From: Chiloscyllium plagiosum | Taxonomy: Eukaryota | Direction: 5' to 3' | Length of the DNA stretch: 64,000 nucleotides | NCBI RefSeq assembly: GCF_004010195.1 | Contig: NC_057749.1 | Location: 9,894,728-9,958,727, forward strand | Part shown: in pieces, positions 283 through 56,700 of the stretch | Layout: every line of letters starts with the position of its first letter | Position numbering within the stretch: position 1 is the stretch's first letter | Translations under genes and position numbers: made by a program | The notes under the pieces: generated by a model | What the model saw: only the letters and a program-made list of their open reading frames with translations | Told to the model about the DNA's origin: nothing | The model's database searches: none

Positions 283-755
283 TAGACAAGCAGGAGGCTG
301 GAAGAACACAGCAAGCCAGGCAGCGTCAGGAGGTGAAATCAATGTTTCGGGTATAACCCTTCTTCAGGAATGGAGGTGGGGATAGGGATATAAAGGAGGG
401 GTGCTGTTATGCGTGGGGAGAGGGTCAGCATGGTGAGGTAGTGATAGGTGAATAGGGGTGGTTGGTATGTCCTGGTTGGTCAATAGGAGGAATGAATCCA
501 ATTGGTGGCTGGAAGGAAGGGTCAGTCAGAGGAATGGAAGGGAGGAGGGGGTGGGGGATGGGTGGGAAGGTTATTTGACATTGGAAAACTCAACTTTGAG
601 TCCTCCAGACTGTAGGCTGCCCAGGCAGAAGATGAGGTGTTGTACCTCCAATTTGTGGTCTGATTCACTGTGGCAGTGGAGGAAGCCGAGGATGGGCATG
701 TCGGAAAGGGAGTGGGAAGGGGAATTAAAATGGGTGGTGACTGGGAAGTTAGGTT
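283..755 (-). mobile_element. Penelope-like element 3' fragment (GIY-YIG C-terminus, 3'UTR and hammerhead remnant)
   Basis: Minus strand encodes KLEVQHLIFCLGSLQSGGLKVEFSN, the PLE ORF-end motif; 13-bp TSD ggccatttcagag at 270-282 and 756-768; splits an older SINE. Confidence 0.8.
337..369 (-). ncRNA. minimal hammerhead ribozyme motif (partly decayed)
   Basis: CUGAAGA-A-GGG-uuaua-CCC-GAAAC-AUU; ACGU palindrome decayed to ACAU. Confidence 0.55.
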
Positions 756-1378
756 GGCCATTTCAGAGGGCATTTAAAACTCAGCCACTTACCTGTGGAT
801 CTAGAATCACCTATAGGCCAGACTGGGTAAGGATGGCAGATATTTTTCCCTAAAGGACATTAATGAACCGGATGGGTCTTTACAACAACTGATGGTTGTT
901 TCAGGATTCCCATTACTGCAGCTCAGGTTTGCTTTGACATCAACTTTGATAATGGATGACATTGCCTTGATGATATTACGAAAAGTGCTACAACCCCCTA
1001 GGGTTTCAGCAATGATGGATTTTCAGCACTACTTGTTAGTGGTGTGTTCCGATCGTAAGATTGCACAATGGTGCTGTTGCCTCTGTAATTGAGTTGAAGA
1101 GTGTGTCTTTACAGCTGCTAATCAGCCTCTGGTGGGCTCTTTCTCACCTGAGATACGGAGACAACAAAAAGTCACTTTCATCAATTCTCTGATGAATCCA
1201 CAGCGTTTAGAATCCTGCTGTAATTTTGGTGCAAACTCCAATTGAATCCTGGCAAATCCGAAAGATTGAAGGTCATTGGTGAGGCCTCTTCTGGAGAACT
1301 GTGCCCAGGTCTGGTCACCCAGTTATAAGAAGGATATTGTTAAGCTGAAGTGGGTTTTCAGAAGAGCTTCTCCAGGAT

Positions 1379-1712
1379 AGAACATAGAACATAGAAGAAT
1401 ACAGCGCAGTACAGGCCCTTCGGCCCTCAATGTTGCGCCGATCCAAGCCCACCTAACCTACACTAGCCCACTATCCTCCATATGCCTATCCAATGCCCGC
1501 TTAAATGTCCATAATGAGGGAGAGTCCACCACTGCTACTGGCAGGGCATTCCATGAACTCACGACTCGCTGAGTAAAGAACCTACCCCTAACATCTGTCC
1601 TATACTTACCCCCCCTTAATTTAAATCTATGCCCCCTTGTAATAGCTGACTCCATACATGGAAAAAGATTCTCACAGTCAACCCTATCTAAACCCCTAAT
1701 CATTTTGTACAC
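1379..1712 (-). mobile_element. CR1-clade LINE 3' end
   Basis: VYKMIRGLDRVD..TRGHRFKLRG..FFTQRVVSSWNALP; (ttctatg)n tail. Confidence 0.88.
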
Positions 1713-1715
1713 TGT

Positions 1716-2034: not shown

Positions 2035-2485
2035 CAGGATGTATGGAAGGTTTGAGTTAGAAAGTAAGGCTGAGACTTTTTTCACCAGAGCGTAGGAGGT
2101 TGAGAGGCGATCTGATAGAAGTTTATAAAATAATGAGAGGTATAGATAGGGTTAATGGTTGTGCTCTTTTTCCCTAAGATGGGGGATTCTAAGACGAGTG
2201 GGCACATTTTTAAGGTGAGAGAAGAGAGATTTTTAAAAAAGACATAAGCAAATTGTTTACACAGAGGGTGGTTCATGTGTGGAATGAACTTCCTGAGAAA
2301 GTGTTAGATGTGGATACAATTACAACATCTAACAGACATTTGGGTAGATACGTGAATAGGAAAGGTTTGGAATGATGTGGGCCAGGAGCAGGCAGGTGGG
2401 ACTAGTTTAGTTTGGGATTATGTTTGATATAGACTGGTTGGACCGAAGGGTCTGCTTCCGTGCCGGATGACTCTGACTCTAGCTA

Positions 2486-2526
2486 AAGCTCTGATGAAAA
2501 GTCATCTTGATTGGAAACGTAAGCTT
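2486..2526 (+). ncRNA. minimal hammerhead ribozyme motif
   Basis: aagcu-CUGAUGA-aAAGUCAucuUGAUUg-GAAAC-GUA-agcuu; 5-bp stem I; lies within a PLE terminal fragment (about 2481-2617). Confidence 0.7.
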
Positions 2527-2669
2527 GCTGTCTCTCCATGGATGCTGCCTGACCCACTGAGATCCAGTATTTGTTGTTTTCAGTACAGATTCCAGCAACT
2601 GCAGTAAATTCCTCCTCGAATGAAGGGCTATTTCAACCTCCTCCTAATGTTGCTTATGTTGTTTCTTAG

Positions 2670-5700: not shown

Positions 5701-8700
5701 TAGGACTGGTGACGAAATGCCTGGTCAAAGGGGGCCAGTGTTAAGGAGGATGGGGAGTTTGAAGACCTTTAGGGAGGGAATTCCAGAGTTTAGGATCCAG
5801 GCAGCTGCCAGAGTGGTGAAAATAGGAATGTTCAAGCTGAAGGTGTCACGGTTACCGTGGATAGATTTTGGGATGGATGAGATTAAACGGAACTAAGGAG
5901 GGGTTAGGAACATGGAGGGATTTTAAAGTAACGAGGTGAATTTTAAAGTTGAGGTGTTGGAACACTGTGAGAGGACAATATTCACAGTTACTGTGTTGGG
6001 CAAACTCCTGTAAATGTCTCTGAGGGAAGGAAATCCGCCGTCCTTATCTGGTCTGGCCTACATGCGACTCCAACCTCACAGCAATCATGGTTGACTCTCA
6101 TCTGCCCTCTGAAATAGCCGAATGAGGCACTCAGTTCGGGGGGCAATTAGGGATGACCAACAAATACTGGCCTTGTCAGTGGCACCCACAACCCAAGAAA
6201 GACTTTAAAAAGAAAACTTGTCCTGGGGGGGGGGGAGAAACAAAAGTTAAATATTGCGGATTCTGCAAATCTGAAACTTGCTGCGTGCCGATGGTGTGGA
6301 AGTATATCGTGTTCCCTCTCTGTTGCTGGGTCAAATTCCCAGAACTCACTTCCTCACAGCATGGTCAGTGCATCCCACCTGGTCCCCTCACAGCTGCAGC
6401 AGGTCAACGAAGCCACTGACTCAGGGCAATTAGGGATGGGCAATAAATGCTGGCCCATCCAGCCACACCCACACCTTGTAACCATTATTTTTGAAAAAGC
6501 CTGAAGGGGTGACCCGGTGGCTCAGTGGTTAGCACTGCTGCCTCACAGCGCCAGGGACCCAGATTTGATCCCACCTTCAGGCGACTGTCTGCGCGGGTTT
6601 GCTCCGGTTTCCTCCCACAGTCACAAAGATGTGCAGGTTAAAGTGGATTGGCCTTGGGAAATGTGGGGTTACAGAGATAAGGTGGGTCAGAGTTGGATGC
6701 AGTTTGGAGGGTTAGTGCAGACTCGATGGGCCAAATGGCCTCTATCTGAACTGTCTGGATTCTGAGAGATGACAGGCTTGCTGTAATGCTTACATTCCAG
6801 AATATTTCCCTGTCTCTCTCCAATGAGCCACTTGAAACATCACAACATTCAAGATGATGGACCAAGTGCTGGAGTGTGGGCCCAATGTAGACAAAGTTGC
6901 TTTGACAAGACAGTACAGTGTCAATGAGCTGAAGGCTGTCTTCTGTACTGTATCATTCTATGATTTCCGATTATGAAAATCAGTTGATGCAAGGATGGAC
7001 GAGGGTCCTTTAGATCCAGAGGAAACATCAAGCTGTAGGGAATAAAAAGCAGCCAGAATTTGTTTTGGAAAAGACATTTGTGCTGATGGACTTGGTGGAG
7101 ATGATGGTATTGGATTATTGGGCAAGGTAGCACATTAAAGATTCAAAGGCTATTTCAGGCCAATGGAAAGGGAGAAAACAGGAGATTATGTTACAGCTGT
7201 ACAAGACATTGGTTAAGCCACTGTTTGAACATTGTGTGAAATTCTGGTCTCCTCCCTATCAGAAAGATGTTGTGAAACTTGCAAGGGTTCAGAAAAGGTT
7301 TACAAGGATGTTCTCTTCGAGGAGAAAGTGAGGTCTGCAGATGCTGGAGATGGCAGAGAGCTTCTTCAAGGAAGGCATCCTTGTAAGAGGATTCGCAGTA
7401 GGTTGAAATCTTTGAGGAGAAAGTGAGGTCTGCAGATTCCTGAAGAAGGGCCTGTGCCCGAAACGTCGAATCTCCTGTTCCCTGGATGCTGCCTGACCTG
7501 CTGTGCTGTTCCAGCAATAAAGTTTCAACTTTGATNNNNNNNNNNNNNNNNNNNNNNNGTATGGAATGAGCTGCCAAAGGAAGTGGTGAAGGCTGGTACA
7601 ATTGCAACATTTAAGAGGCATTTGGATGGGTATATGAATAGGAAGGGTTTGGAGGTATATGGGCTGGATGCTGGCAGGTGGGACTAGATTGGATTGGGAT
7701 ATCTGGTCGGCATGGATGGGTTGGACCGAAGGGTCTGTTTCTGTGCTGTACATCTCCACGATCTGTTGCGATAGTTGAAGGTGGGGCAAGGTATATTTCT
7801 TGTCATGTTTGAGTCAAATGGCATCCTCATTGCATTTCTTTCTGGTCTCCCTGCTGTAGTAAGCGTGTTGTGAAACTTGAAAGGGTTCAGAAAAGATTTA
7901 CAAGGATGTTGCCAGAGTTGCAGGGTTTGAGCTATTGGGAGAGGCTGAATAGGCTGGAGCTATTTTCGCTGGAGCTATTTTCACTGGAGCAGCGGAGGCT
8001 GAGGGGTGACCTTATAGAAATTTATAAAATCATGAGGGGCATGGAAAGGGTAAATAGACAAAGTCTCTTCCCTGGGGTGGTGGAGTCCGGAACTAGAGGG
8101 CATAGGTTTATGGGGAGAGGGGAAAGATATAAAAGGGACTTAAGGGGCAACCTTTTCATGCAGTGGGTGGTGCATGTATGGAACGAGGAAGTGGTGGAGG
8201 CTGGTACAATTACAACATTTAAAAGGCATCTGAATTGGTGCATGAATAGGAAGGGTTGTGAGGGATATGGGCCAAATGCTGGCAAATGGCATTCTATTAA
8301 TTTAGGATATCTGGTCAGCACGGACGAGTTGGACCACTGGGTCTGTTTCCCTGCTGTTCATCTCTATGATTCCTTCCGAATGTATGGTGAACATGGAATG
8401 GATTAACAACAATAAATTGATAATACAGTATCATGTGGTTTTAGTTCCATCTAGTGGTCAGGTCAAAAGTTGCGATTACTCAAACTGTAACAGGAAAATA
8501 AATCACTGTGCGTCATTGGTTACAGAATAAATACAAAATTAGTTAAAAGGAATTAAAAACTGTTGCCCCTTAAAGGTTCACTGAACTGACCAGGCTTGCT
8601 GCAGCTGAAGCTGACTGTTTTGAATCCTCAGTAGCATCTGTGGAGAGAAAGCAGGGTTAATGCGGCAGATCCAGTGGCCCTTGCTCAGAACCCTTTGGGT

Positions 8701-11700
8701 CCCTGGACCCAAAACGTTAATTCTGCTTTTTCTCCACAGATGTTGCCAAACCTGCTGTGCTTCTCCAGCAGTGTTTTCTTTTGGATTTTCAGCATCTGCA
8801 GTTCTTTAGTTTTAGTTGCTGTTTTCCACCTTCATACGAGTTGAAGTTTGAATTCCCTTGTGGTTCCTCTCCTTCGTAACGTTGTCCAGCTCCACCCGTC
8901 TGCTGCTGCATCCTTTACCTGGGCATTTGCTACCATTCTAGTCCCCACCTGGCTGTTCACCTTCTCTCGTCGTCAAAAAGGAATCCTGATGAAGGGCTTA
9001 TGCCCGAAACGTCAATTCTCCTGCTCCTTGGATGCTGTCTGACCTGCTGTGCTTTTTCAGCACCCAACTCTCTGCTCTGATCTCCACCACCTGCAGTCCT
9101 CACTTTCTCCTGTTCACCTACTCTGTAAACCTGACCTCTTCCAAAACCCATCTCCCCATATAACTTGCACAAAATATCTTTCAGCTGTGCTTGCTAACCA
9201 AGATTGGCCCGACCAGGAACCAATGTCTGGATTTTAAAATTCTCATACCCCTGGTCAAAAGTTTCTTAACGTTTATGACCCTACCCAGCTCAACCGCACT
9301 CTTGAGATCTGTGCGGCCCTCCAGCCCTAGTCTCTGACAGCAACCCTCCATCGAGTTCCTTCTCTCCACTGTGAGTAGGCATGCATTTAATTGCCTCCAG
9401 TCCTAGCTCTGAGATACCTTCACCTCTCCATCCATCTCCTGCTTTAAGCTTCTCCATAAACCAACCCCTTGGACCACGCTTTTGATCGCGTGTCCAACCC
9501 CTTGGACCACGCTTTTGATCGCGTGTGTTGGAAGACCATAAGAAATCTGAGGACGTTATGAAGATGTGGGTGTACTTTGAGAGTTAAAAGCAGCAGAACT
9601 ACCGGTCACAGCACCAAATGTTCTCAATAAGGCAACAATGTAACACTTGGTCGAGTAACTCGATTAGCTCGTTGCCTGGAGACAAAAACAAATTTTGAAT
9701 TTGGCCAGTTTAAATTATACCCCGAAAAGTATCAAACTCCAATCCAGTTTGATTTGGCAATCTTTAAAAGCAAATGACATAATCTGATGCCTTGGGACCA
9801 TTCCTTTCTCTAACCTATCTTTAACTTCCCTTCTATATTACTAGGAAGATCTGAATAGTAGAATGAAAGCTTGAGATAAGAAATGTGGATTGGGAGTTTT
9901 ATTGGACTAGTAATATAGAAGGGACGGTAAAAGATGGGTTAGAGTAAGGAATGGTAAATAGTTAATTATTCTCTGTTATACTTTAAGAAATAAAGTTGTT
10001 AATTATATAACTTTAAATAGTTCTTGGCCTCTCGAATGTTTACAGATTACTGCACGGGATAAATCTTTTCTGTGTTGCTGGCTTTAAGTTAAGCAGGAAG
10101 GTTTACCCCGTGTTGTAACAGGAGAAGTAGGCCATTCGACCCTTCGTGCCTATTCTATCAATCATTAGGATTGTGGCTGGTCTGACATTCCTCACATCTG
10201 CTTTCCTGTATTTTCCTTGATTCCCCGACTGATCAAGAATCTGTCTGTCTGAACCTTAAATGTACACAAGGACTCTGCACCCCCATGGTTGTCTGTCCCC
10301 ACCCAACCACAAAGACACCTAACCCTCCTCATCTCAGTCTGAAATTGGTGCCCTTTTATTCTGAGACTACACCCGCTGGTCTTAGGCTCTCGTAGGAGGG
10401 GAAGCATCCTCTCAGCATTGATCCTGTCAAGCCCCTTAAAGAATCCTGTCTGTTTCAATGGAATCTATTCTGATATCTCTCTCTGACTCCGTGACATGTT
10501 TTGCCTGATCACACTTTCAGTGAAGTGTCATGGGATGTTGTACACTGTTGAAGATGCGACATCAGTCCGTACTATAGAAATATTTTGTATTTGGTGATTT
10601 TTTTTTTTAAAAGGTAGCATCGATTGAAACCTAAGTCAGGTCTCTAATTAACTTTAAAATAAGATTACTTTGGGGAATGAGACTCTGGACATGACTATAG
10701 GAAAGGTCAATGCTGAGTGGAGATTTTCTGTTTCAGAGCCAGTGTTGGTGACTCCCTCTCTGCATTAGGTAACATTGCAGATAAAGTGGGTTTGACTGGG
10801 CATGTATTCACTAGAGTTTAGAGCGGATATAGCAGGGCTCGACAGAAAGATGCAGGGAGGATGTTTCCCTGGTTGGGGAATCAGGTACCAGGGGTCACAG
10901 TGTCTGGATATAGGGTATGAGGAATTCTCTCCCCCAGAAAGCTGTGGAAGTCAGATCACTGAATATATTCGATAAATACATTTTTATATCTTGAAGACAT
11001 CAAAGATATGGAGAGAAAGTAGGTATACGGCATTGAGGTAAAGGATCACCCATGACACTAGTGAATTATTGGATCTAGCGTTTGGAGCTAAAGGGATCAA
11101 AGCAGTGGGCAGCACAGTTGCTCAGTGGTTAGCACCGCTGTATCGCAGCACTACGGACCCAGGTTTGATTCCAGCCATGGACGACTGTACAAACTCCACA
11201 CAGACATTCTCCCTGTGTCTGTGTGGGCTTCCTCCAGTTTCCTTGCACAGTCCAAAGATGTACAAGCTGAGTGGATTAGCCACGGGAAACATGGGGTTAC
11301 TGGAATAGGGTAAGGTTGTGGGTCTGGGTGTGTTACTTTTCAGAGGGTCGGTGTGGACTCGATGGGCCAAAAATGGCCTGCTACCGTACTGTAGGGATTC
11401 TGTGATATGGGAGAAAGCAGTAAAAGGCTGTTGATTTGGATGATTACAACGAATGACAGCAGGCTTGAAGGGCCGAATGGCCTACTCCTGCTCTTAGTAA
11501 ATTCTGTTCATCTTCTCTTGCAGATGACCATGATGTTCTGTCCTTTCTCACATTCAGCTTGACGGAGCCTGGAACAATGGTGGGAATCATAAGGGCCCAG
11601 CCTTTGTTTGACCTGTGTTACGTAGAAACATGCCCCCCCCAGCAATACGTGGTTTTAACAAACGATTGCAACACTCTCCGAAAACGTGGCCAGCAACGTT

Positions 11701-38700: not shown

Positions 38701-41700
38701 TGACTCCATCTGGAGGAGATGGTGGTGTAGCAGTGGTGTCACAGGGCTAGTAAACCAGAGGTGCAGGTTAGCACTCGGGTGTCACTGGTTCGAATCCCAA
38801 TATGGCAGTTGGCAGTATGTAAATTCAGTTTGCACATCTGGAATAAAGGCTGGGGTTGTGATACATGGGTAGCGTCCTTACCTCTACACCAGAATATCCA
38901 GCGGCACTTCAGGGTGTGCTGGCCACAGAGCGTGCTGTTGACTTGAAACAAAAAAATTGCTGAAAAGCTGCAGTCATCAATTGTTCTAGCAATCAACACA
39001 GTTCACTAACCTTCTTTTAGGGATTAAAATCTGCCATCCTTACCTGGTCTATCCTACATGTGACTCCAGACCCACAGCAAATTGGTTGGCTTTTAACTGC
39101 CCTCTGGGCAATTAGGGATGGGCAATAAATGCAGGCCTAGCCAGCGACACCTGTCTCCTGTGAATGAATTAAAAACAAAAACAGTAGGCTGAGCAAACCA
39201 CTGAGTTCAAGGGCACTAAGGGATGAGATAATAAATGCAGGGCTTTTGCAGCAATTGATAATTTCATGAGCATTTTATGCCAGAACTGGCTTTCAATTCA
39301 GATTTATTCATTGAAACTAAATTCTGCTCAGTGCTGCAGTGGGATTTGAACCGGTGATCCTAAAGCTTTATTTACCCTGGGCCAGTCAATTACCAGCCCA
39401 CTGACATGATCATCTCTCCCCACAATGGCTGTCGTGATTTGATTTCTTAATAAGTTACAAACTACTTACCAGAGACCAGTTGGAAATAGCCAGTGTGTTT
39501 AATACATGCAGAGCACTCTAAAGGTAACGGCAGTGCTAATGGAAATTGGTTTGCCTGACTTGCCAAATTTAAGGGTGGGTGGTTAAAGTTGAGGATTCTG
39601 CTGCTACTATTTCTGCTGTCGCTGCCAGTGTCTGCCAAGTAACAGCCTGTTGTTGTTCTGCACTCCAGACTAAGCTGTGGTAGGTTAAGGCGTGTTGCAT
39701 ACTCCAAGATGAGCTGCATTGTCCCCTGTTACAGAATAATTGTTTCTGCCCATGTTCAGAACAAATCCATTACTAATCCACCCACAGGCTGAATCCCAGT
39801 TCAAAAATTAAACAACAGCAAGCTGATTCTGGAACGATGACAGATTTGTTCTCATTGGCAAAGGATTCACTCCCTCGGTTAACCATGTGGCTCCCGGTTT
39901 TTCATGTTGAAAAGTATTTGAAATTCATTTCTGATATTCCCGGAACACACCTAAAACCTGGGCATGGGAAATATTACTCTAATATTACACTAAAGACATG
40001 AGGGAGACAGTGAGGGGAAAAAAAAGGGAGACTGAAGCAATAGGGAATCAAAGAGTCTTGAGGAGACCTTGGATTGTGTCTTATATTCTTGCCCCCGACT
40101 AAGAGTGGCCACATTCAGAGAACAAAGTTTAAAAATCACCAAACGCCAGGTTATAGTCCAACAGGTTCACTTAGAAGTACAAGTTTTCAGAGTGCTGTTC
40201 CTTTGTCAGGTAGCTAGTGGGGCAGGATCATAGGACTCAGAATTTATGGCAAAAGATCAAAGTGTCATATAACTGATGGGGAAATATTAAACATTCAGTT
40301 AGAGTTAGAGAGTTGAACAAGTTGGCGCTGATATTTGGATGATGGAAATCAGCAACTCAAGATGGAGGGAATCCATGGGATAGTTTTAAAAGCAAGATTG
40401 AGGTCTCCGTGTCGTTTTGTGGAGACTAATCGAATTGGAAAAGGCGAATTGATGAGGGCAGTATGTTTTGTAATTTGAACGGCCTGGGTAGCAGTGAAGC
40501 CAGCGAGCTTTAGAAAATTCCAGTCTTGCCCCCAAAATCATGATGGGTACATTTTTGTTAAACCATCAAATATTCCCAGTTTCCAAATCTTAGTATGAAG
40601 GCAAATTGTCTTTTTATCATATTGAATTGGGCCCAAATGCAGTACAAGGATACATTTGTGAAAGGGGGCAAAAAAGTTTGCTTGTTCTAAACTGAAGAAT
40701 CTCTCCATTTAAGTGTGTTTTACAAAGATTTAATTAATTTGCAATGAGAATTAATTAAGTTTTTTACTTTTCCTCTGAAGACAGTAATGTGCTCTGAATG
40801 AAAGTCTCTTTAAATGTTTTCCGAAGGTGTCAGGAAATGGAAACTTTTTTGTTTTAGTTTCTCAGACACACCCGTGAGAGGTTAAAAATATTAACATTGA
40901 GCTTGCTAAATTTGGGTTATGACTCACCAGCTTTGAGTTGTTTGAAGTTTTACAAGAATGTTGCCGGGATTGGAGGATTTGAGTTATAGGGAGGGGCTGA
41001 ATAGGCTGGGGCTATGTTTCCTGAGCGTCGGAGGCTGAGGGTGACATTATATAGGTTTATAACATCATGAGGTTTATGGTGTAGGTTTGCTTGCTGAGCT
41101 GTAGGTTTGATATCCAGACGTTTCATTACCTGGCTAGGTAACATCATCAGTGGCGACCTCCAAATGACGCGAAGCTGTTGTCTCCTGCTTTCTATTTATA
41201 TGTTTGTCCTAGATGGGCTTCCTGGGGTTTGTGGTGATGTCATTTCCTGTTCGGTATCTAGAACTATGTGTTTGTTTTTGGCGTTGTGGTTGGAGTGCCA
41301 GGTCTCTAGGAATTCTCTGGCTTGTCTTTGCTTAGCCTGTCCCAGGATAGATGTGTTGTCCCAGTCGAAATGGTGTTTTTTTCCTCCGTGTGTAGGGCTA
41401 CGAGGGAGAGAGGGTCGTGTCTTTTTGTCGCTAGCTGATGTTCGTGTATCCTGGTGGCTAACTTTCTTCCTGTTTGTCCTACATAGTGTTTATGGCAGTC
41501 CTTGCATGGAATTTTGTCTACACTTTGAGATGCTCCGTCTTCAATTTGCCTGATAATTATTTGATTTATTATTGCCATGTGTACCTAGGCACAGTGAATT
41601 GTTTTGTTTTGTTTTGCGTGCGCTACAGATCATACCATACAAAGTGCATTAGGGTAATAGAATAGAACGAGGAATACAATGTTACAGCTACAGAGAAGGT

Positions 41701-44700
41701 GCGCAAAGAGCAAGATCCACATTAAATTTTAAATTTGTGAGGTCTATTCAAAAGTCTAATGACAGTGGGGAAGAAGCTGTTCTTGAATCTATGTTTAAGC
41801 TTTTTGTTTTTTCTGCCTGACGGAAGAGGTTGGAAGAGATTATAACTGGGGTGTTGTTGTTGGCTGCCTTCCCGAGGCAGTGAGAAATATAGATGGAGTC
41901 AATGTGTGCAAGGTTGGTTTATGTGATGGATTGGGCTGTGTTCACAACTCTGTAGTTTTGACAGTCCTGGGCAGAGTAGGTACTGAACCAACTTGCGATG
42001 CATCTGGATGCATTAGAGGACTGACGTCAGGTGCACAGAGTCCTGTTACAATGTCAGGGGAAAGGAAATATTTACAAAAGCAGCATATTCATGTAGAGTT
42101 GATTTGCAACATTACCTTGAGTGTGAATCGGACAAGATTGACAATATCCATGTGTGCTGAAAATGTGTTGCTGGAAAAGCGCAGCAGGTCAGGCAACATC
42201 CAAGGAACAGGAGAATCGACGTTTCGGGCATAAGCCCTTCTTCAGGAATCCATGTGTATTAAGTTGATGACGCATTGAGCCTGTCTACACTCAGTATGGC
42301 TTCAACCTCTTGATTAAGCATTCCTTCCTTGTTCCATTGAGTCCAGAACATCAAGAGATCAGAGGAAAACCACCCTGGGTAAATTTGGGAAATAATATTT
42401 TGTGAAAACATCCCTCTGCCACCTCCCCCATCTCCAGCAAATTGAAACCTGTCTGAGAAATATTGAAGTGAAAGCTCTCTCCATCATCTGTGGCACAAGC
42501 AGCTTTGATGGTTAGCTATTGTTTCCTCCTTAATGTGTTATTATCTGGTGCTAGGATACAACCTAAGAATGTAAATTTCTGCAAGCCTTTTCCCTGTGTG
42601 AAGGAAGGAAGGGATCTGAGCACAATTCGCTGCTGTTATTTTTCTCATGTAACATTGCCGCAATTCTCTCACTGCCTATGCCTCTTCACCATGGGAACCA
42701 GAGGACCAATGCTGTGGGGACATGAGTTCAAATCTTGTCATAACAGCTGGCCATAAACTCATACGGCCTGGAAACAGACCCTTCAGTCCAACTCACCTAT
42801 GCCGACCGGGTTTCCTAAACTGAACTGGTCCTACTTCCCTGCCTTTGGCCCATATCCCTCTAAACCTTGCCTATTCGTGTACCTATCCAAATGTCTTTTT
42901 AATGCTGTAATCATAACCAACATCTTATCACTTTCTCTGGCAACAGTGTTACAGAGCTGGTGACCTGGGGGTCTGGACTAATGCTGCAAAGTCACACGTT
43001 CAGATCCCACCACGATAGCTGTGGGAAGGTAAATTCAACTCATAAATGAGTCTCAAATATAGTGAGCATAACAGAACCAGATTGTCATTAAAAACCCATC
43101 TGGGTCACCAATATATTTTAAGGATGGAAATCTGCCATCCTTCCCCAGTCTGGCTCATATGTAACTACAGACAAATAACAATGAGGTTGCCTCTTAATTG
43201 TCCCCTCAAATGTCCCTGCAAGTCACATCACTGAATAAAAGGTGTACAAAAGGAGTTGTTCGAGTAACTAAACTGGGCTGTTCACAAAAGCAGTTCATCA
43301 CCACTCACCACTTACCACGCCTCCCCCCCCCCCCCCCCCCCCCCCACCGGCAACCAGAATTGTATACAGTATTCTAAGTGCAAGTTAAGTTCAGTTAATA
43401 AAATCAGTTGTAGTAATGGCGGTCCGTGATAATGTCATTGTAAAAGCCCAACTGATTCGGTAATAGCCTTTAGGGACATCTGCCATCCTCACTTGGTCTG
43501 GCCTGCATGTAGTTCCAGACAAACAGCGATGTGGTTCATTCTTGAAGTGGCCAAGTAAGCCAAGGGTAATTAAGGAATGGTCAACAAATTCTAACCTTGC
43601 CCACATCCTTTGAGACAAAGCAAGCCCAGTCCTACCCTTCCTGAATATCAGAATGTAAGCATTCGGTGGAGTTAGGTTGTAAGGTTTTGGACAGAACTGT
43701 TTTCACAACTGCATTCGACTGGCTGATGAAGTTGTCCATTTAGATTACTAATCAAATGTTCTTTCATTGCTGCGAATCATGTTCAGAACTTATCTGGCCC
43801 TCAGTTCAGAACACTGTTTACAGTTACATAAATATCTAGAGCTTACTGTTTATTCATTTGTTCATCTGACCTCCTTAGTTAGTTGCAGAATCAGTTGAAT
43901 GTTAGCTTGCAGTCTCCTGTCCTTGACAGCACATTGCCCAAGATAATATCAAGCCAAGAGCAAAAGCTGTGATATGTGGAGCTGGTTTCCTCTGTTACAA
44001 TGTCGTCATTGATGCTCTGTGCCTTCCAGCCCCTGTGTGTCCAATTGAGTGGAAAACATACTGCTGTCAACCATTGTCTCCTTCAAGCAGATTCATTTCC
44101 TGGGAAAGCATTTTAACTCCTGAGTTTGTTTTCCCCGATTCCAGTGCCATTGACTGGAGGAAGCCAATGTAATGTGCAGTCTCTGAGATGCACCGTGAGA
44201 TGGCAAAATAGTTGTAGCAGTTAAGGAGGGCGATCATTTAACCAGATTGTTGTTGGGTTAGGGTTGGGGAACTGGTGCAGGCCATTCAGCCCCACTCAAA
44301 CCTGCTCTCTCATTCAGTTAGGCTGTGTCTAATCTGTATCATAACCCCAGCGAACTGCATTGTTTCACTTGCTATGTTTGGCTATTTTCTCATTGACCTC
44401 ATTCTCATTAATACGCACCTCTGCAGTAGGCTGAGGTGCTGCACTACCACTGTGCCACAATAGCCTTATTCCTTGGTGTGTTTGCCAAATGTTTATCCAT
44501 CTCAGGTTTGAAACTTTCATCTGGCCTCCAGTCTGAGCAACTGTTCATGAGACCTGAGTAGGGCATTGTGCACAGTGCCTTCAATTTTATATTTGCCAGG
44601 ATGCATGATCTCTATTTACAAGGGGACATCTTGTTTTGATTTTTTTTATTTTCACATGAACTCAAGTACAAAAGTACAGGAGTGCAGTAAAAATTGTATA

Positions 44701-47700: not shown

Positions 47701-50700
47701 TTAGTTTATCTGGGGGAAATATTTAATTCGGAGACATTGAGCAATCCCGTTACCTGGGATTTACTCCAATATTTCTCCTGGGGAAACAATGCTCAGGAAA
47801 TAATCTCAAATGTTGCCCAATCTTGCTAAATATATTTGTAGTTTGGTGAAAGGGAAATGAAATGAGCTATTGGGTCCTGAGCTTTTTTTCAATGTTCTGT
47901 TACTTTTGACCATTGTGCTTTTCCATGCCGAGAGGTGTGGGATGGTTGATTATTCATGGGATCATGTTTCTTTAACTGCTGGGCGTTCCCTGGTACTCGA
48001 TCCAGGGACTGACCTGTGTGTTGACAGGCTGCTGAACTGGAGAGAATTGAACCCAATCCTTCCATCAGATAGCTGGACACATCTCCACTTTTGGCAAGAA
48101 TATCCAGAACGTAACTAGGAACCAGTGATAACTCTTCATCTAATCCAACCCAAGAGGTTGGGACATTCAATGTGTTGACCATGTTTCATTAGCTAAGTTT
48201 TAGGTCCCGGCTAATCTTAAGGCCAAAGGGCTATACACAGCTCAGCTCCATGTCCTCACTTGCTGCAAAGTTCTATTCGTCTATCAATTTTTTTTTTTGG
48301 CCAATTAGACCCTTTTAGTATTCTTTTTCAGAATCAAATTGGGTGTGCCCAAGGAATGACCCCACATCCCTTTATCGTGACTCCTGTACAATCTACTCAG
48401 TCCAGTCCAGTCCAATCAATGATTATGATTAAATGGACCTCTGTAGATATGAAGGAATATGTCTCCACAAGCCAAATGTACAATAGATTCAAATTCAAAA
48501 GGGAAGAGCTTATTTGGCTCAACCTCTCTGAACTTCATGTACGAGAAATGTTTTACACCCAGTAATTATTCTTCAGTGTTTGTACGCTGTGGGGATTGAG
48601 GGTGTTTCAGCTCTTGGCCATACAACAGTGTATTTTTGATGAGGGTAACTAGATAACCGGGCAGTGTTCCGTTCCATTTCCACTCTGTGGGTCTGTTTTA
48701 ACAAATGTGTATGGTAGACTTGTCATAGATGAGACCGGAATCGAAACTGGGTCCCTGGCACTGGAATTTAAATATGATTGATAAAATCTGAAATTGAAAG
48801 CTAGCCTCCATAATGGTGGCCATGACCACTGTCATTAATGGCTATAATGTCTTAAGAGAAGGAAACATGCCCTTTTTACCCAGCCTGGCCCACCTTATGA
48901 ATCCATACTCATCAATGTGGCTAATCCTTAACTGCCCTCTGAAACGGCCAAGCATGCTACTCAATTCAAGGGCAGTGATGGATGGGCAACAAATGCCAGT
49001 GAAACCAGTGATGCCAACATCCCTTTAAAGAATAAACAAAAGCAGGGAAGTAGTTTATTTCATTAAGAACTAAAAATGCCTGAGTCTTTGCAGGACAAGA
49101 CTGGAATGATCTCTCCTGTTGTGTATTGGTTGAGTAGTAAGTATTGAATCTACCACAGGCATGTAGGTCAGGTTCACTGCCCTCTGGGATTTTGCTCTGC
49201 CTGCTCCACTCGCTGAGTTAATGGTTTCGATTTTCCTCCTCTTCCACCGAATGTGCAAGTTTTCTGAGAAACTCAATGAAAACATGTCCCCTCTTTTGTC
49301 GAGAATTTGCTCTTACAGACTCCTCCCAGGCTCAACTGACTAGAATAAATCACACAAGCCGTACACAGAACCACCTTCTGAAATGAAAATTGTTGGAAAC
49401 GCTCCAAATCTATGAGCATCTGAACCCTGGGAAGTTCATTGACCCAAAATGTGAACTTTAGCCTTTGCATTCTCCCGACACTGTCTGACCCGCTGAGTGT
49501 TTTCTGGCATCGTCTGTTTCTGATTCAGAATAGCCAGAAAATCTCTTTTGAGAGAGCTTCGCAGTGCTTTTCCCAACTTATGATTAGATTGTAAGTGTAA
49601 TTAGAATTGAATTGCAATTTCATATTTTAATATGATAATCCCACCGTGCCTCCTCATGTAAACTATATTTGGATACAGTGTTCGACACTGCTTCAGTGGC
49701 TGACACTACAACGATCTGTACAGCTGCATAACAAATGCCATCTGCTGATTTTTTTTTTTCCCCTAACCAGAGGCTGATTTTGAGCAGGAAGCCAAGTGAT
49801 AATGCTGGGAGTGAATCATCTGACTGGAGTGACCTATTAGTCCACACAGTGCATAGCCTTTAGTTTTCTGTAGATAGTGGAACTTTTATTGGGAAGATCC
49901 CAGATTGTAACCATAGGTGATAGTTACCAGGACATATGATTCTTAAGTGTCTTTTGTTCAAAGTCGTGAACAATTACGAGTTAGCTAGAGGTAGGGGACG
50001 CAGTTTTAAAAATGTAGGGTCTCCAGTTCCATTCGGAAACGAGGAGGAATTTCTCCTCCCAGAGGAGTGTTAGTGTTTGAAAGCAGCGGAGGCGGGGTCT
50101 TTGAATATATTCAAAGCTGAGTTGTTCAGACTTTTAATTGACAGGAGGGTTGAGGATTATGGGTGATTGGAAGGAAAGCGGAGCTTGGCCACACTCTGAA
50201 CTGCAGTCTGTTGAACGGCAGGAGGCTCAAGGGTCCGAGCGAGTCATGTCGTACAAAAACAAACCCTTTGGTCCAACTCGCCCATGCTGACCAGGTTTCC
50301 TAAATTAAACTAGTCCCATTTTGTCAGCATTTGGCCCATTTCCCTCTGACCCTTTCTGATTCATGTACCTGTCCAAATGTCTTTGAAATGTTGTAACTGT
50401 GCCCACATCCACCACTTCCTCTGGAAGTTCATTCCACACGTGAACTACTCTGTGTGAAAATGTTGGCCCTCAGGATCCTTTTAAATCTTAAACCCTCTTT
50501 ATCTTAAACCTAAGACCTGTAGTTTTGAACTGCCCTATCCTTAGGAAAAGACATATGCTATTCACCTTATCTATGCCCCTCATGATTTTCTAAACTTCTA
50601 TAAACCTCAACCACCTACAATCCAGTGGAAAAAGTTCCAATCTATCCAGCCTCTCCCTATAGCTGAAATCCTCCATTTCCAGTAACATCCTTGTAAATCT

Positions 50701-53700: not shown

Positions 53701-56700
53701 GGAACATTGAGCTGCCAGTCCGGCCTTTTTCTCAGCCAAGTTTCTGCAATGGCTGCAACATTGTAATTCCATGTAGTAACCCAGGCCTTAAGTTCATGTG
53801 TTATACTCTTTGCTTTAAGTTAAATACACATTTTCATTATCATTCATGAATACTAAATGCACCTGTGTTCATTAGCCTGGTCTTGCCTATCCTTCCTATT
53901 AGACTCATTTCTCAATCATTGCATATGCTGACCCACCACTCTGGCTCCCCTGCCATGCCATACAAATTTAAACCCTCCCAAATTACACTGGCAGGACTCC
54001 CCTGCAAATGGCAGTGCGTGCTGGATCAATTGTTAATTTTAAATCTTAGATAATTTTTGTGAAGCAAAGGAATTTGAGCCAATGACAGATGTGTGGAGTT
54101 AAGCTACAGATCAGCTGTGATCTTATTGAATAGCAGAACAGGCTTGAGGAGGTGAATGGCCTACTCCTGTTCCTGTTTCTGAGTAACCTGTTATGGACCA
54201 GACCAGGCCTCTCAAACTATTTTAAGAAGGTAGCCTAGCCCCTAACTTTTTCTTAGTTTAAAGTGAAATGTAAAGTGCCGTGTTCCAGATGCAGTGTGAC
54301 TGGTCAAACTACTCCATATTAACGCTGAAAATGTGTTGCTGGAAAAGCGCAGCAGGTCAGGCAGCATCCAGGGAACAGGAGAATCGACGTTTCGGGCATA
54401 AGCCCTTCTTCAGGAATGAGGAAAGTGTGTCCAGCAGGCTAAGATCTTCTCTTTTCCAGCAACACATTTTCAGCTCTGATCTCCAGCATCTGCAGACCTC
54501 ACTTTCTCCTAATCCATATTAAGCAAAACACAATTTGTTTGAACACTATTGATAAAATACAACCAAAGAAAGAGGAATTTAGAGTAGCGTAACTATTGGA
54601 AACTTAACAGAATAGTTGATACAATTGCTTTATTAATTAATGGTTACAATATAGTAACATCCCATCAGCATACTCTTTGGCAAATATAGAAAACAGATTT
54701 AGTCTCCCATGCAATCTAGCAGCTGAGGAAGAGAATCCCCAGCTTTTGGCTGTAATCGGTGAGGCGGTAAGAATAGCTTCTACCTCTTCAAGCCCACAAC
54801 AGCAACTGCTTTAAAGTTAAACCTAAAAACGAAATTAGAAATTCTGGTCTGAGAGCTGGCCACAACCCATTCAGGCTGATGCTATTGTTCCAATGTTTTA
54901 AAATAACCCAAGTTGTTTATTCTAATGGTTTTGGTGCACCGTTTGGCACCACTGCCTTACAACCTCCCTTTTAAAAACAGAGACTAGGACAAGATAACCT
55001 CTTAATGCCACAGCATTGTCACAGACGTCAGCATTCGGCAGCGTGCTGTTTTTTAGATTCTGTACCATTACGTGAATTGGTGAAAAAAATAGATCAAAAT
55101 GTCTGGCTCTTTAACCTGGAATCATGGCCTTTAAATTTGAGAATGTAAAATAGTTTACCTGAATCATAAACTACTCGTGCTAGATAGTGATTGTAATGAA
55201 CTGTACCAGGTGAATTTGTGGCAGAGTTCTTTTTGGACTGTTGCACTGTGAGGAATGTTGGAAGATTTGCTCTCAATCTGAACTGTCTAAATTAAATGCC
55301 ATAATTATTCCTTCCATTTTTAACACCATTCTGCATGCCTTTAAGGAATGTTTTTACCCCTTCATGTACTTCTTTTCTGTTGCAACACAGTATTGTTCTG
55401 AAGGCAGAATTAGTATTCGTCAGATGTAGCACATTCTGCATTCTGTAGAACACATGGCATTTCCCCAGGGTGAGAGCGAGACTCAGGCCAGTTTTTGATC
55501 AAAATTCACTTCCCCACACAATCACCCAGGGAGCTTCCCTTCAGAGGCTTACTCTCATGAGAACAGGAGGAGTTGCAAGCTTGCCTTCCTTAAAGCAAAG
55601 CCGCTAGGCATCCCAAACGTATTGGTAGTCGAAGGGCCAACTATTCTGCAGAGTCACCCCTGTGACCTGAGATGCAGCCACCTTCCCCAGAGGTGTGATC
55701 ACTACACATTCTCCAGTATGTGGGTTTGAAACATCACTCCTTAAATCCATCATCTCACTCACAAAAGAGTGGTAGACAAGCTTTTAAAAATATCGGTGAG
55801 AGAATAAGGATAGACTTCACCTTCCCAATCAAAACTGTCAGTCAGTAATTTGTCCTGGAGCTCACGAGTGAAACCCCCTCCACTCCAAACCACAGTTCCC
55901 AAAGACTATGTTAAATTGTCCCCAGAGTATCAGATATCTGCTGAATGAAAAATGTAGTCATTGTGTTAGGAAAGAAAAGCTATTTTGCAAATGAAATGCA
56001 GCCATTAACCAACGATTTTGCAGTTAAATAGCTGTAGTGAGAGTGCTTTTGTTTGTGTAGGTAAGCATTAGTACATTTAACAGAAAGGGGTCCTACAAAG
56101 ACAACAGAAGGATCGAAGATTTTACTTTTTAAAACTTGTAACAAAAAAAATGACATCAATCTCATTCAAACAGTAATTAACAGCTGAAGGGTGCTTCAAA
56201 TAAAAAGGGAAATTGCATTTGAAATAGAACAGAACAAAAATATACCACAGATGGTCACAGGCACTTCCTATTACTTACCACACAAACCAAGTACCATAAG
56301 CAATCTCAAAGTCTTTTTAATTCAACTTTTGTTTTGTAGGATCTCTCACTTCCCATCTAGTTGTTTGAAGCTTGAATTGCATTCACCTACAACCTTGTTT
56401 TAGATGAATATTAACTGCCCCAGACACAGTTATCATTGACAGGAGCATATCTACAAACTCTCTCGCACTGGGGTCTTGATAGTCCTGATGACAAAAAGTG
56501 CCTAGAGGTTTCCTTCTCCAAGCCCTTTAAACACCCCTGCTGGGCTCTGGCCCAACATCAACAGCAGCAGTTCTATCTCTCTCTCTCTGTTTCTGTCTCT
56601 CTCTGTTTCTGTCTCTCCCTTCTGTGTCTCTCTGTCTCTGTGTCTCTGTGCCTCTGTGCCTCTGTGCCTCTGTGCCTCTGTGCCTCTGTCCTTCTGTGCC

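What the first reader, a model, noticed from the sequence alone, without database searches (positions are those of the whole stretch)
337..54418. At least nine minimal hammerhead ribozyme motifs from several unrelated PLE-derived families inside one shark gene
Seen: the pattern stemI-CUGANGA-(extra nt)-stemII-GAAAC-GUH-stemI' occurs at 337(-), 2486(+), 7435(+), 8981(+), 21692(+), 26076(+), 41114(-), 42213(-) and 54381(-). The core nucleotides are constant while the helices differ in sequence yet still pair: stem II is GGGC/GCCC, GGUC/GACC, AGUCA/UGAUU or GUUACCU/AGGUAAU, and stem I is gauuc/gaauc, aagcu/agcuu, aguu/aacu or cca/ugg. That is structural covariation. Where a PLE ORF remnant is adjacent (283-755, 25367-26168, 41075-41545), the motif lies on the ORF sense strand downstream of it. 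Established: Penelope-like retroelements carry minimal type-I hammerheads with a palindromic, loop-less stem III (ACGU here) thought to act as dimers. Inference: this shark genome may carry such ribozymes at very high density, roughly one per 7 kb in this window, from multiple families. I cannot tell whether these shark families have been described.
Basis: partly seen in the sequence, partly recalled or inferred. Interest (0 to 1): 0.8.

Follow-up and report, generated by a model that had tools for sequence, protein, structure and literature searches.

The report
Penelope-element hammerhead motifs in shark DNA
The nine small hammerhead-ribozyme motifs are real, but they are the ordinary tail-end signature of Penelope-like jumping genes, here from a repeat that appears to be extremely abundant in carpet sharks.

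Summary
They have the anatomy of the minimal, loop-less type-I hammerheads of Penelope-like elements (PLEs). The families are not "unrelated": 8 of 9 share a homologous 3' tail, so they form one superfamily with three subfamilies. Only 41120(-) belongs to a second PLE family.

The PLE origin holds. Three copies lie downstream of ORF remnants homologous to shark RT + GIY-YIG proteins. Three insertions have 8-10 bp target-site duplications, and there is an optional 35-nt tail and an inverted upstream copy. Six further tail-bearing copies in the window have decayed cores, so these are neutral relics.

Laying contigs from public DNA runs gave 65,118 and 57,729 matching pieces in two related organisms. 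Depth over hammerhead plus tail was about 10^5-10^6 times that of the unique flank (rough, the tool warns it is no copy number). The window's density therefore looks representative.

Cleavage could not be tested. Verdict: new members of a known kind, notable mainly for abundance. This scan had noted PLE hammerheads before only in other genomes (rotifers, protists, moss).

The parts
335..373 (-). Main-family minimal hammerhead, decayed. Helix III is ACAU and the cleavage triplet is AUU. Stem II is GGGU/ACCC, a compensated change.
574..762 (-). C-terminal remnant of a PLE GIY-YIG endonuclease ORF. It ends in a stop about 200 nt upstream of the 344 hammerhead.
   Evidence: 52% identity over 100% of the query to P0013, which has a sub-threshold GIY-YIG match. 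The same C-terminal motifs are seen in P0016 and P0017.
2485..2561 (+). Subfamily hammerhead (stem II AGUCA/UGAUU, stem I AAGCU/AGCUU, GUA site) plus the conserved tail block at 2541-2561. There is no standard 10.1-11.1 pair.
7321..7517 (+). Main-family hammerhead 7434-7473 (6-bp stem I) with tail 7473-7517. Two inverted copies of the 35-nt tail extension lie upstream at 7321-7351 and 7416-7437. The assembly gap 7536-7558 follows.
8963..9110 (+). 148-nt insertion holding hammerhead 8980-9019, the tail and the 35-nt extension (9019-9110). It is flanked by the 9-bp direct repeat TGTTCACCT at 8954-8962 and 9111-9119.
21610..21790 (+). Hairpin-shaped element. An inverted copy of the tail forms the left arm. 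Hammerhead 21691-21732 (stem II GGUC/GACC, GUU site) has its 5' half in the loop and its 3' half in the right arm.
25101..26170 (+). Longest main-family copy. It holds PLE ORF remnants (RT-EN linker with a C-x4-C motif, the GIY-YIG part largely missing), a C-rich 3'UTR, hammerhead 26075-26114 and tail 26114-26170.
   Evidence: 22 proteins at E up to 0.001, best E 2.5e-30, in Chiloscyllium, Rhincodon and Stegostoma. Also.
41111..41584 (-). Second PLE family. A GIY-YIG remnant at 41309-41584 is followed by hammerhead 41156-41111 (7-bp stem II GUUACCU/AGGUAAU, stem I CCA/UGG). It has no homology to the other tail.
   Evidence: 12 proteins at E up to 0.001, best E 5.1e-22 at 90% identity; 67% identity to P0002 across the GIY-YIG motif. 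Also.
42156..42249 (-). Solo 94-nt unit of hammerhead plus tail. It starts 4 nt before CUGA and is flanked on both sides by the 8-bp direct repeat ACACATGG (42250-42257 and 42148-42155).
54323..54512 (-). Composite insertion. An inverted copy of the tail end plus 35-nt extension (54451-54509) sits upstream of hammerhead 54419-54380 and tail 54380-54324. The whole is flanked by the 10-bp direct repeat TTAATATGGA (54513-54522 and 54313-54322).
8620..8790 (+). Hairpin-family relic with a decayed core (CUCAGAA and AAAAC in place of the two boxes).
   Evidence: 9.3 bits.
24560..24780 (+). Hairpin-family relic. Both tail arms are present, but the hammerhead region is lost.
25090..25300 (+). Hairpin-family relic with a decayed core (G12 replaced by A).
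   Evidence: 13.7 bits, E 0.17.
57680..57830 (-). Hairpin-family relic with tail blocks on both arms and no CUGANGA box.
35300..35450 (-). Old decayed copy. It has UUGAAGA and AAAUGUC in place of the boxes, and its tail block has 5 of 21 mismatches.
49390..49540 (+). Old decayed copy. It has CUGAACC and AAAAU in place of the boxes, and its tail block has 5 of 21 mismatches.

Best explanation
The nine motifs are the minimal type-I hammerhead modules that Penelope-like retroelements (PLEs) carry in their 3'/pseudo-LTR region. Eight come from one superfamily, whose ORF has a Neptune-type C-x4-C-x2-C linker. In it the hammerhead is followed by a conserved 57-nt tail that ends in an AC-rich stretch, with an optional 35-nt extension. 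One comes from a second family, which I infer to be Poseidon/Penelope-like.

How I think it works. The steps are inferred from published PLE biology unless marked as shown here.
- A master element is transcribed, often through tandem or neighbouring copies.
- The loop-less ACGU helix III stops a single motif from folding actively. Two motifs can pair through ACGU and cut after GUC/GUA/GUU.
- The PLE reverse transcriptase starts inside the tail at one of two nearby sites. That gives copies with or without the 35-nt extension.
- Copying is often incomplete, or yields an extra inverted piece.
- The result is short solo units, hairpin-shaped composites and a few longer copies with ORF ends, each flanked by a target-site duplication. 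This last step is shown here.

The copies in this window are inserted relics. They decay neutrally, chiefly at their two CpGs, and as isolated monomers they are probably catalytically inert.
For: Motif anatomy:
- The CUGANGA and GAAAC boxes are present in 9 of 9.
- An extra nucleotide between A9 and stem II is present in 9 of 9.
- The 10.1-11.1 pair is G-C in 6 of 9 and G.U in 1 of 9.
- A loop-less ACGU helix III is present in 8 of 9.

Core constant while stems vary (copy 26081 against 21697 and against 2491):
- The two boxes match 13 of 14 and 13 of 14.
- Stems and loop match 11 of 24 and 5 of 24.
- The tail block matches 19 of 21 and 18 of 21.
- Flanking DNA matches 13 of 70 and 12 of 70.

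Pairing:
- 79.7% of 79 cells are paired, against 67.0 +/- 3.0 in shuffles (0 of 500 reach it).
- 7 of 10 pairs show a change on both sides (5 of 500 shuffles reach it).
- Slid controls give 11-49% paired.

PLE identity:
- ORF remnants upstream of three motifs hit shark proteins that carry RVT_1 and GIY-YIG. In one search, P0016 scores 23.2 bits for GIY-YIG against a cut-off of 22.6; the other GIY-YIG matches are sub-threshold.
- The annotated Stegostoma protein P0017 runs past the endonuclease end and finishes in a peptide that is the in-frame translation of such a hammerhead.

PLE insertion signatures described by Craig 2021 (PMC8557442, passages) and Frangieh 2024 (PMC11167929, passages):
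- There is an optional 35-nt tail extension.
- An inverted truncated copy sits upstream.
- Three insertions have target-site duplications of 8, 9 and 10 bp. A shared 8-mer arises in 245 of 20,000 random placements.

Relic status:
- 6 of 14 tail-bearing elements in the window have decayed cores.
- Genome-wide, the only variants of about 10% or more inside the hammerhead are two loop positions and the two CpGs.
Against: - No cleavage, circular RNA or RNA end could be examined. The one raw-read RNA run laid no read, and the other 'RNA' run is only guessed to be RNA.
- No two motifs in the window lie in tandem. The closest same-strand pairs are about 1.1 and 1.5 kb apart, and Tandem Repeats Finder found no array at any motif.
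- Published work weakens the catalytic step. In-vitro activity of metazoan PLE hammerheads is low even as dimers (PMC4209133, read). Core mutants did not affect insertion by the Anolis element, and no RNA-seq reads ended at its cut site (PMC11167929, passages).
- In the hairpin subfamily, 3 of 4 relics have A at G12, so that lineage may spread without an intact core.
- Five of nine stem I helices are imperfect, and two of nine lack the 10.1-11.1 pair.
- Pfam alone gave no hit on the window's own ORF remnants.
- The clade names (Neptune-like, Poseidon-like) rest on one linker motif, not on a tree.
Confidence: 0.85

Rival explanations
1. The short hammerhead-plus-tail unit (86-94 nt) is not merely a truncated PLE end. 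It is a minimal non-autonomous element of the retrozyme type. Tandem units are transcribed and cut by paired hammerheads, then the monomer is circularised. The PLE reverse transcriptase starts in the AC-rich tail and copies one turn of the circle. That would give unit-length insertions whose ends are permuted relative to the cut site.
For: - Summed depth rises 4-5 fold between bins 26061-26079 and 26080-26098. Hundreds of contigs have loose ends before 26076-26078 and behind 26161-26170, in two organisms.
- 'Goes back 83/86' joints from 26161/26162 to 26079/26077 occur in 5 contigs of X1 and 4 of X11, which means tandem units exist.
- The 94-nt unit at 42156-42249 begins 4 nt before CUGA, not at the cut site, and has a perfect 8-bp target-site duplication.
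- A 2026 preprint argues that animal retrozymes derive from PLE pLTRs, and found them in its one chondrichthyan (10.64898/2026.07.22.740005, Results read).
Against: - No tandem unit lies in the window.
- The listed tandem joints are few against 65,118 laid pieces.
- Part of the depth step may only reflect a fast-evolving C-rich 3'UTR that falls below 80% likeness. The loose-end consensus before 26076 is C-rich, like that UTR.
- The 8986 insertion carries 17 unrelated bases (8963-8979) before stem I of the motif.
- A preferred stop of reverse transcription would give the same boundary.
- No circular RNA was seen.
Confidence: 0.25
2. The boxes are inherited PLE sequence that no longer serves, or never served, self-cleavage in these sharks. 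On this view they are kept as part of an RNA structure the element's protein recognises, or they merely hitchhike on a successful tail.
For: - Hammerhead mutants did not change insertion in vitro, and no reads ended at the cut site in Anolis (PMC11167929, passages).
- In-vitro activity is low (PMC4209133).
- Craig 2021 notes that PLE clades without hammerheads proliferate well and suggests hammerheads may simply parasitise PLEs (PMC8557442, passages).
- Here the tail block is as conserved as the boxes, and hairpin relics have A at G12.
- In the hairpin form, the 3' half of the motif is sequestered in an 11-bp stem.
Against: - Exactly the catalytic nucleotides stay fixed across three subfamilies and a second, unrelated PLE family, while stems covary. 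That pattern is the one expected of an active hammerhead.
- The extra nucleotide after A9 and the palindromic helix III recur as in other phyla (PMC4209133).
Confidence: 0.3
3. The motifs are chance matches to a short, loose pattern in repeat-rich DNA.
For: The pattern is short. Five of nine fail my strict descriptor, and Rfam finds nothing.
Against: - 9 matches were observed against 1.58 expected, and 0 of 100 shuffles reached 9.
- 4 strict hits were observed against a mean of 0.005 in 200 simulations.
- The motifs sit at the same place in homologous elements downstream of PLE ORFs.
Confidence: 0.01

Closest known systems
Minimal hammerhead ribozymes (min-HHR) in the pseudo-LTRs of Penelope-like elements (Cervera and de la Pena 2014, PMC4209133)
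   Same: - Type-I layout with the CUGANGA and GAAA boxes.
- No helix III loop, and a palindromic 15.2-16.2.
- An extra nucleotide between position 9 and 10.1, and mostly a G10.1-C11.1 pair.
- Consensus families that covary.
- Most copies are solo motifs in truncated elements, and some lie in opposite orientation close together.
- The motif sits downstream of an RT + GIY-YIG ORF.
   Different: - The host group. That paper names fishes, coelacanth, Xenopus and reptiles. I found no shark in its text or in the 2 of 3 supplement files that could be searched.
- Apparent abundance. It calls about 4,000 (coelacanth) and about 9,000 (Xenopus) remarkable. Here the depth ratio suggests 10^5-10^6 (rough).
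- Stem II of the main family is only 4 bp.
PLE insertion architecture: pLTR, inverted 5'-truncated copy and 30-40 bp optional 'tail' (Craig et al. 2021, PMC8557442), and internal initiation of reverse transcription at two sites (Frangieh et al. 2024, PMC11167929)
   Same: - A 35-nt optional extension sits at one end only.
- An inverted truncated copy abuts the 5' side.
- Copy 3' ends cluster at a few nearby places in an AC-rich stretch.
- Truncation at the 5' end is heavy.
   Different: - No direct pLTR pair or full-length element lies in this window.
- A hairpin form seems to have spread as a unit, because the arm breakpoint is the same in 5 copies.
- The reverse-transcription start sites are inferred from copy ends, not measured.
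[quoted passage not shown] 2026 preprint, 10.64898/2026.07.22.740005)
   Same: - Short non-coding units with one hammerhead each, related to PLE pLTRs.
- Rare tandem joints with a period of 83-86 nt exist in the genome.
- The preprint reports retrozymes and PLEs in its one chondrichthyan.
   Different: - The copies here are dispersed monomers, not arrays.
- The unit is 86-94 nt, against a mean consensus of 363 bp reported for Chondrichthyes.
- The hammerhead is the minimal form, not the canonical form with loop-loop contacts.
- Circular RNA was not shown.
Sm-alpha / Sj-alpha SINE-like hammerhead repeats of schistosomes (named in PMC6155905 and PMC6765202, passages)
   Same: A very abundant, short, dispersed retroposon that carries a type-I hammerhead.
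   Different: As I recall, and not checked here, those carry a canonical hammerhead and a pol III-type promoter. No promoter was examined here, and the shark unit is tied to a PLE tail.

Membership tests
PLE minimal hammerhead (min-HHR) | Catalytic boxes CUGANGA and GAAA in type-I order | tested here: met
   9 of 9
PLE minimal hammerhead (min-HHR) | Helices I and II can pair and covary between families | tested here: met
   Stem II pairs in 9 of 9. Stem I is contiguous for at least 3 bp in 4 of 9 and interrupted by one mismatch in the other 5. 7 of 10 pairs show changes on both sides, and 79.7% of cells are paired against 67.0% in shuffles. That alignment was fitted to the structure.
PLE minimal hammerhead (min-HHR) | No helix III loop, with palindromic 15.2-16.2 (dimer-type helix III) | tested here: met
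   ACGU in 8 of 9. Copy 344 has ACAU, the change expected from CpG decay.
PLE minimal hammerhead (min-HHR) | Unpaired nucleotide between position 9 and 10.1 | tested here: met
   9 of 9 have 1-2 extra nucleotides.
PLE minimal hammerhead (min-HHR) | G10.1-C11.1 pair | tested here: inconclusive
   G-C in 6 of 9 (the main family) and G.U in 41120. No standard pair in 21697 or 2491, where an unpaired base lies between stem II and G12.
PLE minimal hammerhead (min-HHR) | Lies in the terminal repeat or 3' region of an element encoding RT + GIY-YIG | tested here: met
   Shown directly for 3 of 9 (344, 26081, 41120). Five more share the homologous tail of that family. No full-length element or pLTR pair is in the window.
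PLE minimal hammerhead (min-HHR) | Self-cleavage 3' of H17, as a dimer | not testable with these tools
   No usable RNA ends. The raw RNA run laid 0 reads.
Rfam hammerhead families | Match to a curated covariance model | tested here: not met
   No hammerhead family matched at gathering score or at E up to 10. I expect this because, as I recall, those models include a closed helix III.
Penelope-like element | ORF with RT and C-terminal GIY-YIG endonuclease | tested here: met
   The window holds remnants only. Their homologues carry RVT_1 and GIY-YIG. P0016 GIY-YIG scores 23.2 bits against a 22.6 cut-off and P0034 RVT_1 scores 32.9 against 29.6; the other matches are sub-threshold.
Penelope-like element | Optional 30-40 bp tail and an inverted 5'-truncated copy at the 5' side | tested here: met
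   The 35-nt extension is present in direct orientation at 9076-9110. It is present in inverted orientation at 54475-54509, 7321-7351 and 7416-7437. The composite at 54323-54512 is bounded by a 10-bp duplication.
Non-LTR retrozyme | Tandem repeats, each unit with a hammerhead | tested here: not met
   None in the window. Elsewhere in the genome only a few tandem joints are listed.
Non-LTR retrozyme | Small circular RNA product | not testable with these tools
   No suitable RNA data.

The most novel reading that the evidence does not exclude
An 86-94-nt unit, made only of a minimal hammerhead and a reverse-transcriptase entry tail, may have been amplified to several hundred thousand copies, about one per 5-7 kb, in carpet sharks. 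That would make it the densest ribozyme-bearing repeat reported in a vertebrate. It may spread as a tiny circular RNA copied for one turn, which would explain unit-length insertions whose ends are permuted relative to the cut site.
Probability: 0.2. Interest if true: 0.6.

Novelty: new member of a known kind. Interest (0 to 1): 0.35.

Why it matters
Minimal hammerheads in Penelope-like elements are well described, so the existence of these motifs changes nothing in principle. Their role in vivo, however, is still open. Published in-vitro activity is weak, and one study found the motif dispensable for insertion.

A genome that appears to hold 10^5-10^6 dated copies of one 40-nt motif is a natural mutational-scanning data set. 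Comparing young and old copies, with CpG sites excluded, would show which positions the active lineages must keep. The sharp unit boundaries and rare tandem joints also give a concrete, testable prediction of an 86-94-nt circular RNA.

For shark genome annotation, the family should be masked. At least two annotated shark proteins run through the element's 3'UTR and appear to translate the hammerhead.

Tried and rejected
- Rfam at gathering score and at E up to 10 gave no hammerhead family. It gave only weak miRNA-like hits on the long hairpins formed by inverted tails.
- No whole genome is held for the window, so no genome-wide motif count was possible.
- A Pfam scan of 300 of the 311 ORFs of at least 60 aa gave nothing beside the motifs. 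The window's ORF remnants also gave 0 families when rescanned. Homology searches were needed instead.
- RNA: one search listed no RNA holder. The raw single-cell RNA run X22 laid 0 of 8.3 million records read, which the tool calls no test. X16 is only guessed to be RNA, so its 5,926 laid pieces and its lower share of CpG-decayed variants (3.6-5.6% against 9-10% in DNA) are not used as evidence of expression.
- The 'other letters' table stops at 40 rows (place 26125), so I cannot say how variable the rest of the tail is.
- Homodimer folding gave only trivial domain-swapped duplexes. It says nothing for or against the ACGU dimer.
- Earlier notes of this scan hold nothing on this genome and no look-alike sequence. 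The hits by words were rotifer, protist and moss PLE hammerheads, and they did not change my reading.
- Literature searches found no paper on hammerhead ribozymes in sharks. Searches were swamped by hammerhead-shark ecology. One search found no paper joining Penelope with these shark genera. One search found one irrelevant paper.
- Lunse et al. 2017 on dimer cleavage is not held. I know it only from a reference list and from recall.
- bioRxiv supplements are closed. I therefore could not see which chondrichthyan the 2026 preprint sampled, or its family consensus sequences.

Full report
OBSERVATION

The 100 dinucleotide shuffles gave 1.58 +/- 1.39 matches, and none reached 9.

I then wrote a stricter descriptor. 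It asked for a contiguous stem I and stem II of at least 3 bp, a loop-less palindromic helix III, then U and H. It passes 4 of 9, against a mean of 0.005 hits in 200 second-order Markov simulations.

The five that fail are all members of one repeat family with a single mismatch in stem I. Copy 344 has also lost the ACGU palindrome and the GUC triplet.

A covariance model built from the nine finds them, as it must, at 33.4 bits or more. The next hit scores 13.7 bits and is a visibly decayed relative, so there are no further intact copies. Rfam reports no hammerhead family, either at gathering score or at E up to 10.

ANATOMY

- All nine have both catalytic boxes, and all nine have one or two unpaired bases after A9.
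- Eight have the loop-less ACGU helix III.
- The cleavage triplet is GUC in 6, GUU in 1, GUA in 1 and AUU in the decayed copy.
- Stem II is GGGC/GCCC in five copies. It is GGGU/ACCC in 344, GGUC/GACC in 21697, AGUCA/UGAUU in 2491 and GUUACCU/AGGUAAU in 41120.
- The 10.1-11.1 pair is G-C in six, G.U in one and absent in 21697 and 2491.
- On the model-fitted alignment, 79.7% of 79 cells pair, against 67.0 +/- 3.0 in shuffles (0 of 500 reach it). Seven of 10 pairs change on both sides. Slid controls pair at 11-49%. That alignment was fitted to the structure, which favours it.

FAMILIES

BLAST of the flanks shows that six copies (344, 7440, 8986, 26081, 42221, 54389) are one family. They are alike for about 80-122 nt, from a few bases before CUGA in most pairs (28 nt further upstream between 26081 and 54389) and running 3'.

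A multiple alignment shows that 21697 and 2491 share the same 3' tail. Comparing 26081 with those two by region gave the following:

- The two boxes match 13 of 14 in each.
- Stems and loop match 11 of 24 and 5 of 24.
- A 21-nt tail block matches 19 of 21 and 18 of 21.
- Flanking DNA matches 13 of 70 and 12 of 70.

So eight of the nine belong to one superfamily with three subfamilies. Within it the core and one tail block are conserved islands, and the stems covary. Only 41120 is unrelated in its flanks.

LINK TO PENELOPE-LIKE ELEMENTS

Pfam alone saw nothing next to the motifs. Translations upstream of three motifs looked like PLE protein ends, and homology searches confirmed this.

- ORF 41309-41584(-) hits 12 longer proteins. 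The best is 90% identical, from Chiloscyllium punctatum.
- ORF part 25497-25802(+) hits 22 proteins, from Chiloscyllium, Rhincodon and Stegostoma.
- ORF 574-762(-) hits one.
- These proteins carry RVT_1 and GIY-YIG. P0016 is above the Pfam cut-off for GIY-YIG and P0034 for RVT_1; the rest are sub-threshold.

The main family's proteins have a C-x4-C-x2-C motif before the endonuclease. Craig et al. describe such a motif for the Neptune and Nematis clades (PMC8557442, passages). The second family's proteins lack it. The labels Neptune-like and Poseidon/Penelope-like are my inference from that one feature.

The annotated Stegostoma protein P0017 runs through the 3'UTR and ends in the in-frame translation of a hammerhead. 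P0003 has a stretch compatible with the second family's motif. This suggests, at peptide level only, that the motifs are kept in another genus.

INSERTION ANATOMY

The tail is 57 nt and ends in an AC-rich stretch. A further 35 nt is present in direct orientation at 9076-9110. It is present in inverted orientation at 54475-54509, 7321-7351 and 7416-7437.

Three insertions are bounded by direct repeats:

- An 8-bp repeat bounds the 94-nt solo unit at 42156-42249.
- A 9-bp repeat bounds 8963-9110.
- A 10-bp repeat bounds the 190-nt composite at 54323-54512. That composite is an inverted tail piece followed by hammerhead and tail.

A shared 8-mer arises in 245 of 20,000 random placements. I saw none at the other copies. 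The ends of those copies are unknown, or in the case of 7440 cut by the assembly gap at 7536-7558.

These features match the published PLE signature. It includes heavy 5' truncation, an inverted truncated copy at the 5' side, and an optional 30-40 bp tail at one end (PMC8557442). The tail has been explained by two internal start sites of reverse transcription (PMC11167929).

A hairpin-shaped form (21610-21790, and relics at 8620-8790, 24560-24780, 25090-25300 and 57680-57830) has the same arm breakpoint in all five copies. It therefore probably spread as a unit. Only 21697 keeps both boxes, and three of the four relics have A in place of G12.

The conserved tail block occurs 16 times in about 14 elements, against 0.05 expected. 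Eight of those elements keep intact boxes. Six are decayed, including old copies at 35300-35450(-) and 49390-49540(+). The motifs therefore decay after insertion like any dead repeat.

GENOME-WIDE ABUNDANCE

No genome is held, so I laid public data on window:25700-26250 at 80% likeness.

- Contigs of a DNA run of the same organism gave 65,118 laid pieces. Of these, 10,806 were at least 99% alike.
- A DNA run of a related organism gave 57,729.
- Summed word depth is 16-38 in the unique flank (26194-26250). It is 1.5-2.3 x 10^7 over hammerhead and tail in the first run, and 0.8-1.3 x 10^7 in the second.
- The ratio is about 5 x 10^5 to 2 x 10^6. The tool states that this depth is no copy number, so I take only the order of magnitude, 10^5-10^6.
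- That agrees with the window: 14 tail-bearing elements in 64 kb is one per 4.6 kb.
- Depth steps up 4-5 fold at the 5' edge of the motif.
- Loose ends cluster before 26076-26078 and behind 26161-26170.
- A few contigs go back 83-86 nt (tandem units), and many join opposite strands (hairpins).
- Inside the motif, the only positions with about 10% or more other letters are two loop bases and the two CpGs (C11.1-G12 and C15.2-G16.2), each at about 9-14% in the DNA runs. That table is capped at 40 rows and ends at 26125.

MECHANISM

Shown here:

- The motif anatomy.
- The shared descent of eight copies.
- The PLE protein remnants.
- The target-site duplications.
- The optional tail and the inverted copies.
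- The decay of relics.
- The very large number of matching contig pieces.

Inferred from the literature:

- Single motifs are inactive because helix III cannot close. Two motifs pair through ACGU and cut after H17 (PMC4209133, parts 1-2 read; PMC6765202, passages).
- The reverse transcriptase enters in the tail (PMC11167929).

The inferred steps are uncertain. In-vitro activity is low. The Anolis element inserted without a working hammerhead, and no reads ended at its cut site. I therefore put identity at about 0.85-0.9, and in-vivo self-cleavage by master copies at about even odds.

Five motifs lie on the + strand and four on the - strand. The one gene exon I found is on the + strand. That split shows no orientation bias, as expected if monomers are harmless, but nine copies are too few to test it.

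COMPARISON AND NOVELTY

This is the min-HHR of PLEs as defined in 2014, with the published PLE insertion architecture. Cervera and de la Pena list fishes, coelacanth (about 4,000), Xenopus (about 9,000) and reptiles. The largest count I saw in print is up to 120,000 retrozyme copies in the axolotl (PMC7229834, passages).

A 2026 preprint reports PLEs and retrozymes in its one chondrichthyan. My searches found no paper on hammerhead ribozymes in sharks.

I therefore file this as new members of a known kind. The abundance and the discrete 86-94-nt unit are the only points a specialist might find notable. Both need a whole-genome count.

Noticed in passing
window 3941-4141 (+), aligned part about 4001-4129: An ORF piece matches the legume-like lectin domain (Pfam E 6.3e-6) and ERGIC-53/LMAN1 structures (E 2e-7, chain residues 158-200). 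It is probably one exon of an LMAN1-like host gene.
   Followed up: partly
window 16466-16912 (-) and 30342-30886 (-): Reverse-transcriptase (RVT_1) fragments lie far from any hammerhead. They are probably other retroelements such as LINEs.
   Followed up: no
window 7559-7746, 2277-2463, 46727-46911, 58374-58564, 50253-50436, 8186-8364, 23495-23663 and others: A different repeat of about 190 nt has a dozen or more copies at 76-90% identity. It turned up beside the 2491 and 7440 motifs and is unrelated to the hammerhead tail.
   Followed up: no
window 61114-61246 (+): A long near-perfect hairpin (-66 kcal/mol) with a weak miRNA-like Rfam hit. It has a different sequence family from the hammerhead hairpins.
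   Followed up: no
window 25366-25470 (+): A perfect 52-nt tandem duplication (2.0 copies, 100% match) lies inside the PLE ORF remnant. It doubles a conserved linker peptide.
   Followed up: no
window 7536-7558: The only run of N (23 bases) in the window lies just after the tail of the 7440 element. This fits the reported difficulty of assembling PLE insertions.
   Followed up: no
proteins P0017 and P0003 (Stegostoma tigrinum), P0006 and P0011: Public shark gene models read through PLE 3'UTRs and translate the hammerhead. Models named MAP3K7 isoform X3 and CUE domain-containing protein 2 isoform X1 contain a PLE endonuclease-like segment. This is either exonisation or an annotation artefact.
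   Followed up: no
window 26126-26170 and homologous tails: The tail holds a small stem-loop (GCUG...CAGC). It is kept with changes on both sides in subfamily 2491 (ACUG...CAGU), just before the AC-rich stretch where copies end. It is a candidate entry site for the reverse transcriptase.
   Followed up: partly
places 26100-26106: In run X16, which is only guessed to be RNA, CpG-decayed variants of the motif make up 3.6-5.6% of depth. In the DNA run of the same organism they make up 9-10%. Younger copies may be over-represented there.
   Followed up: no
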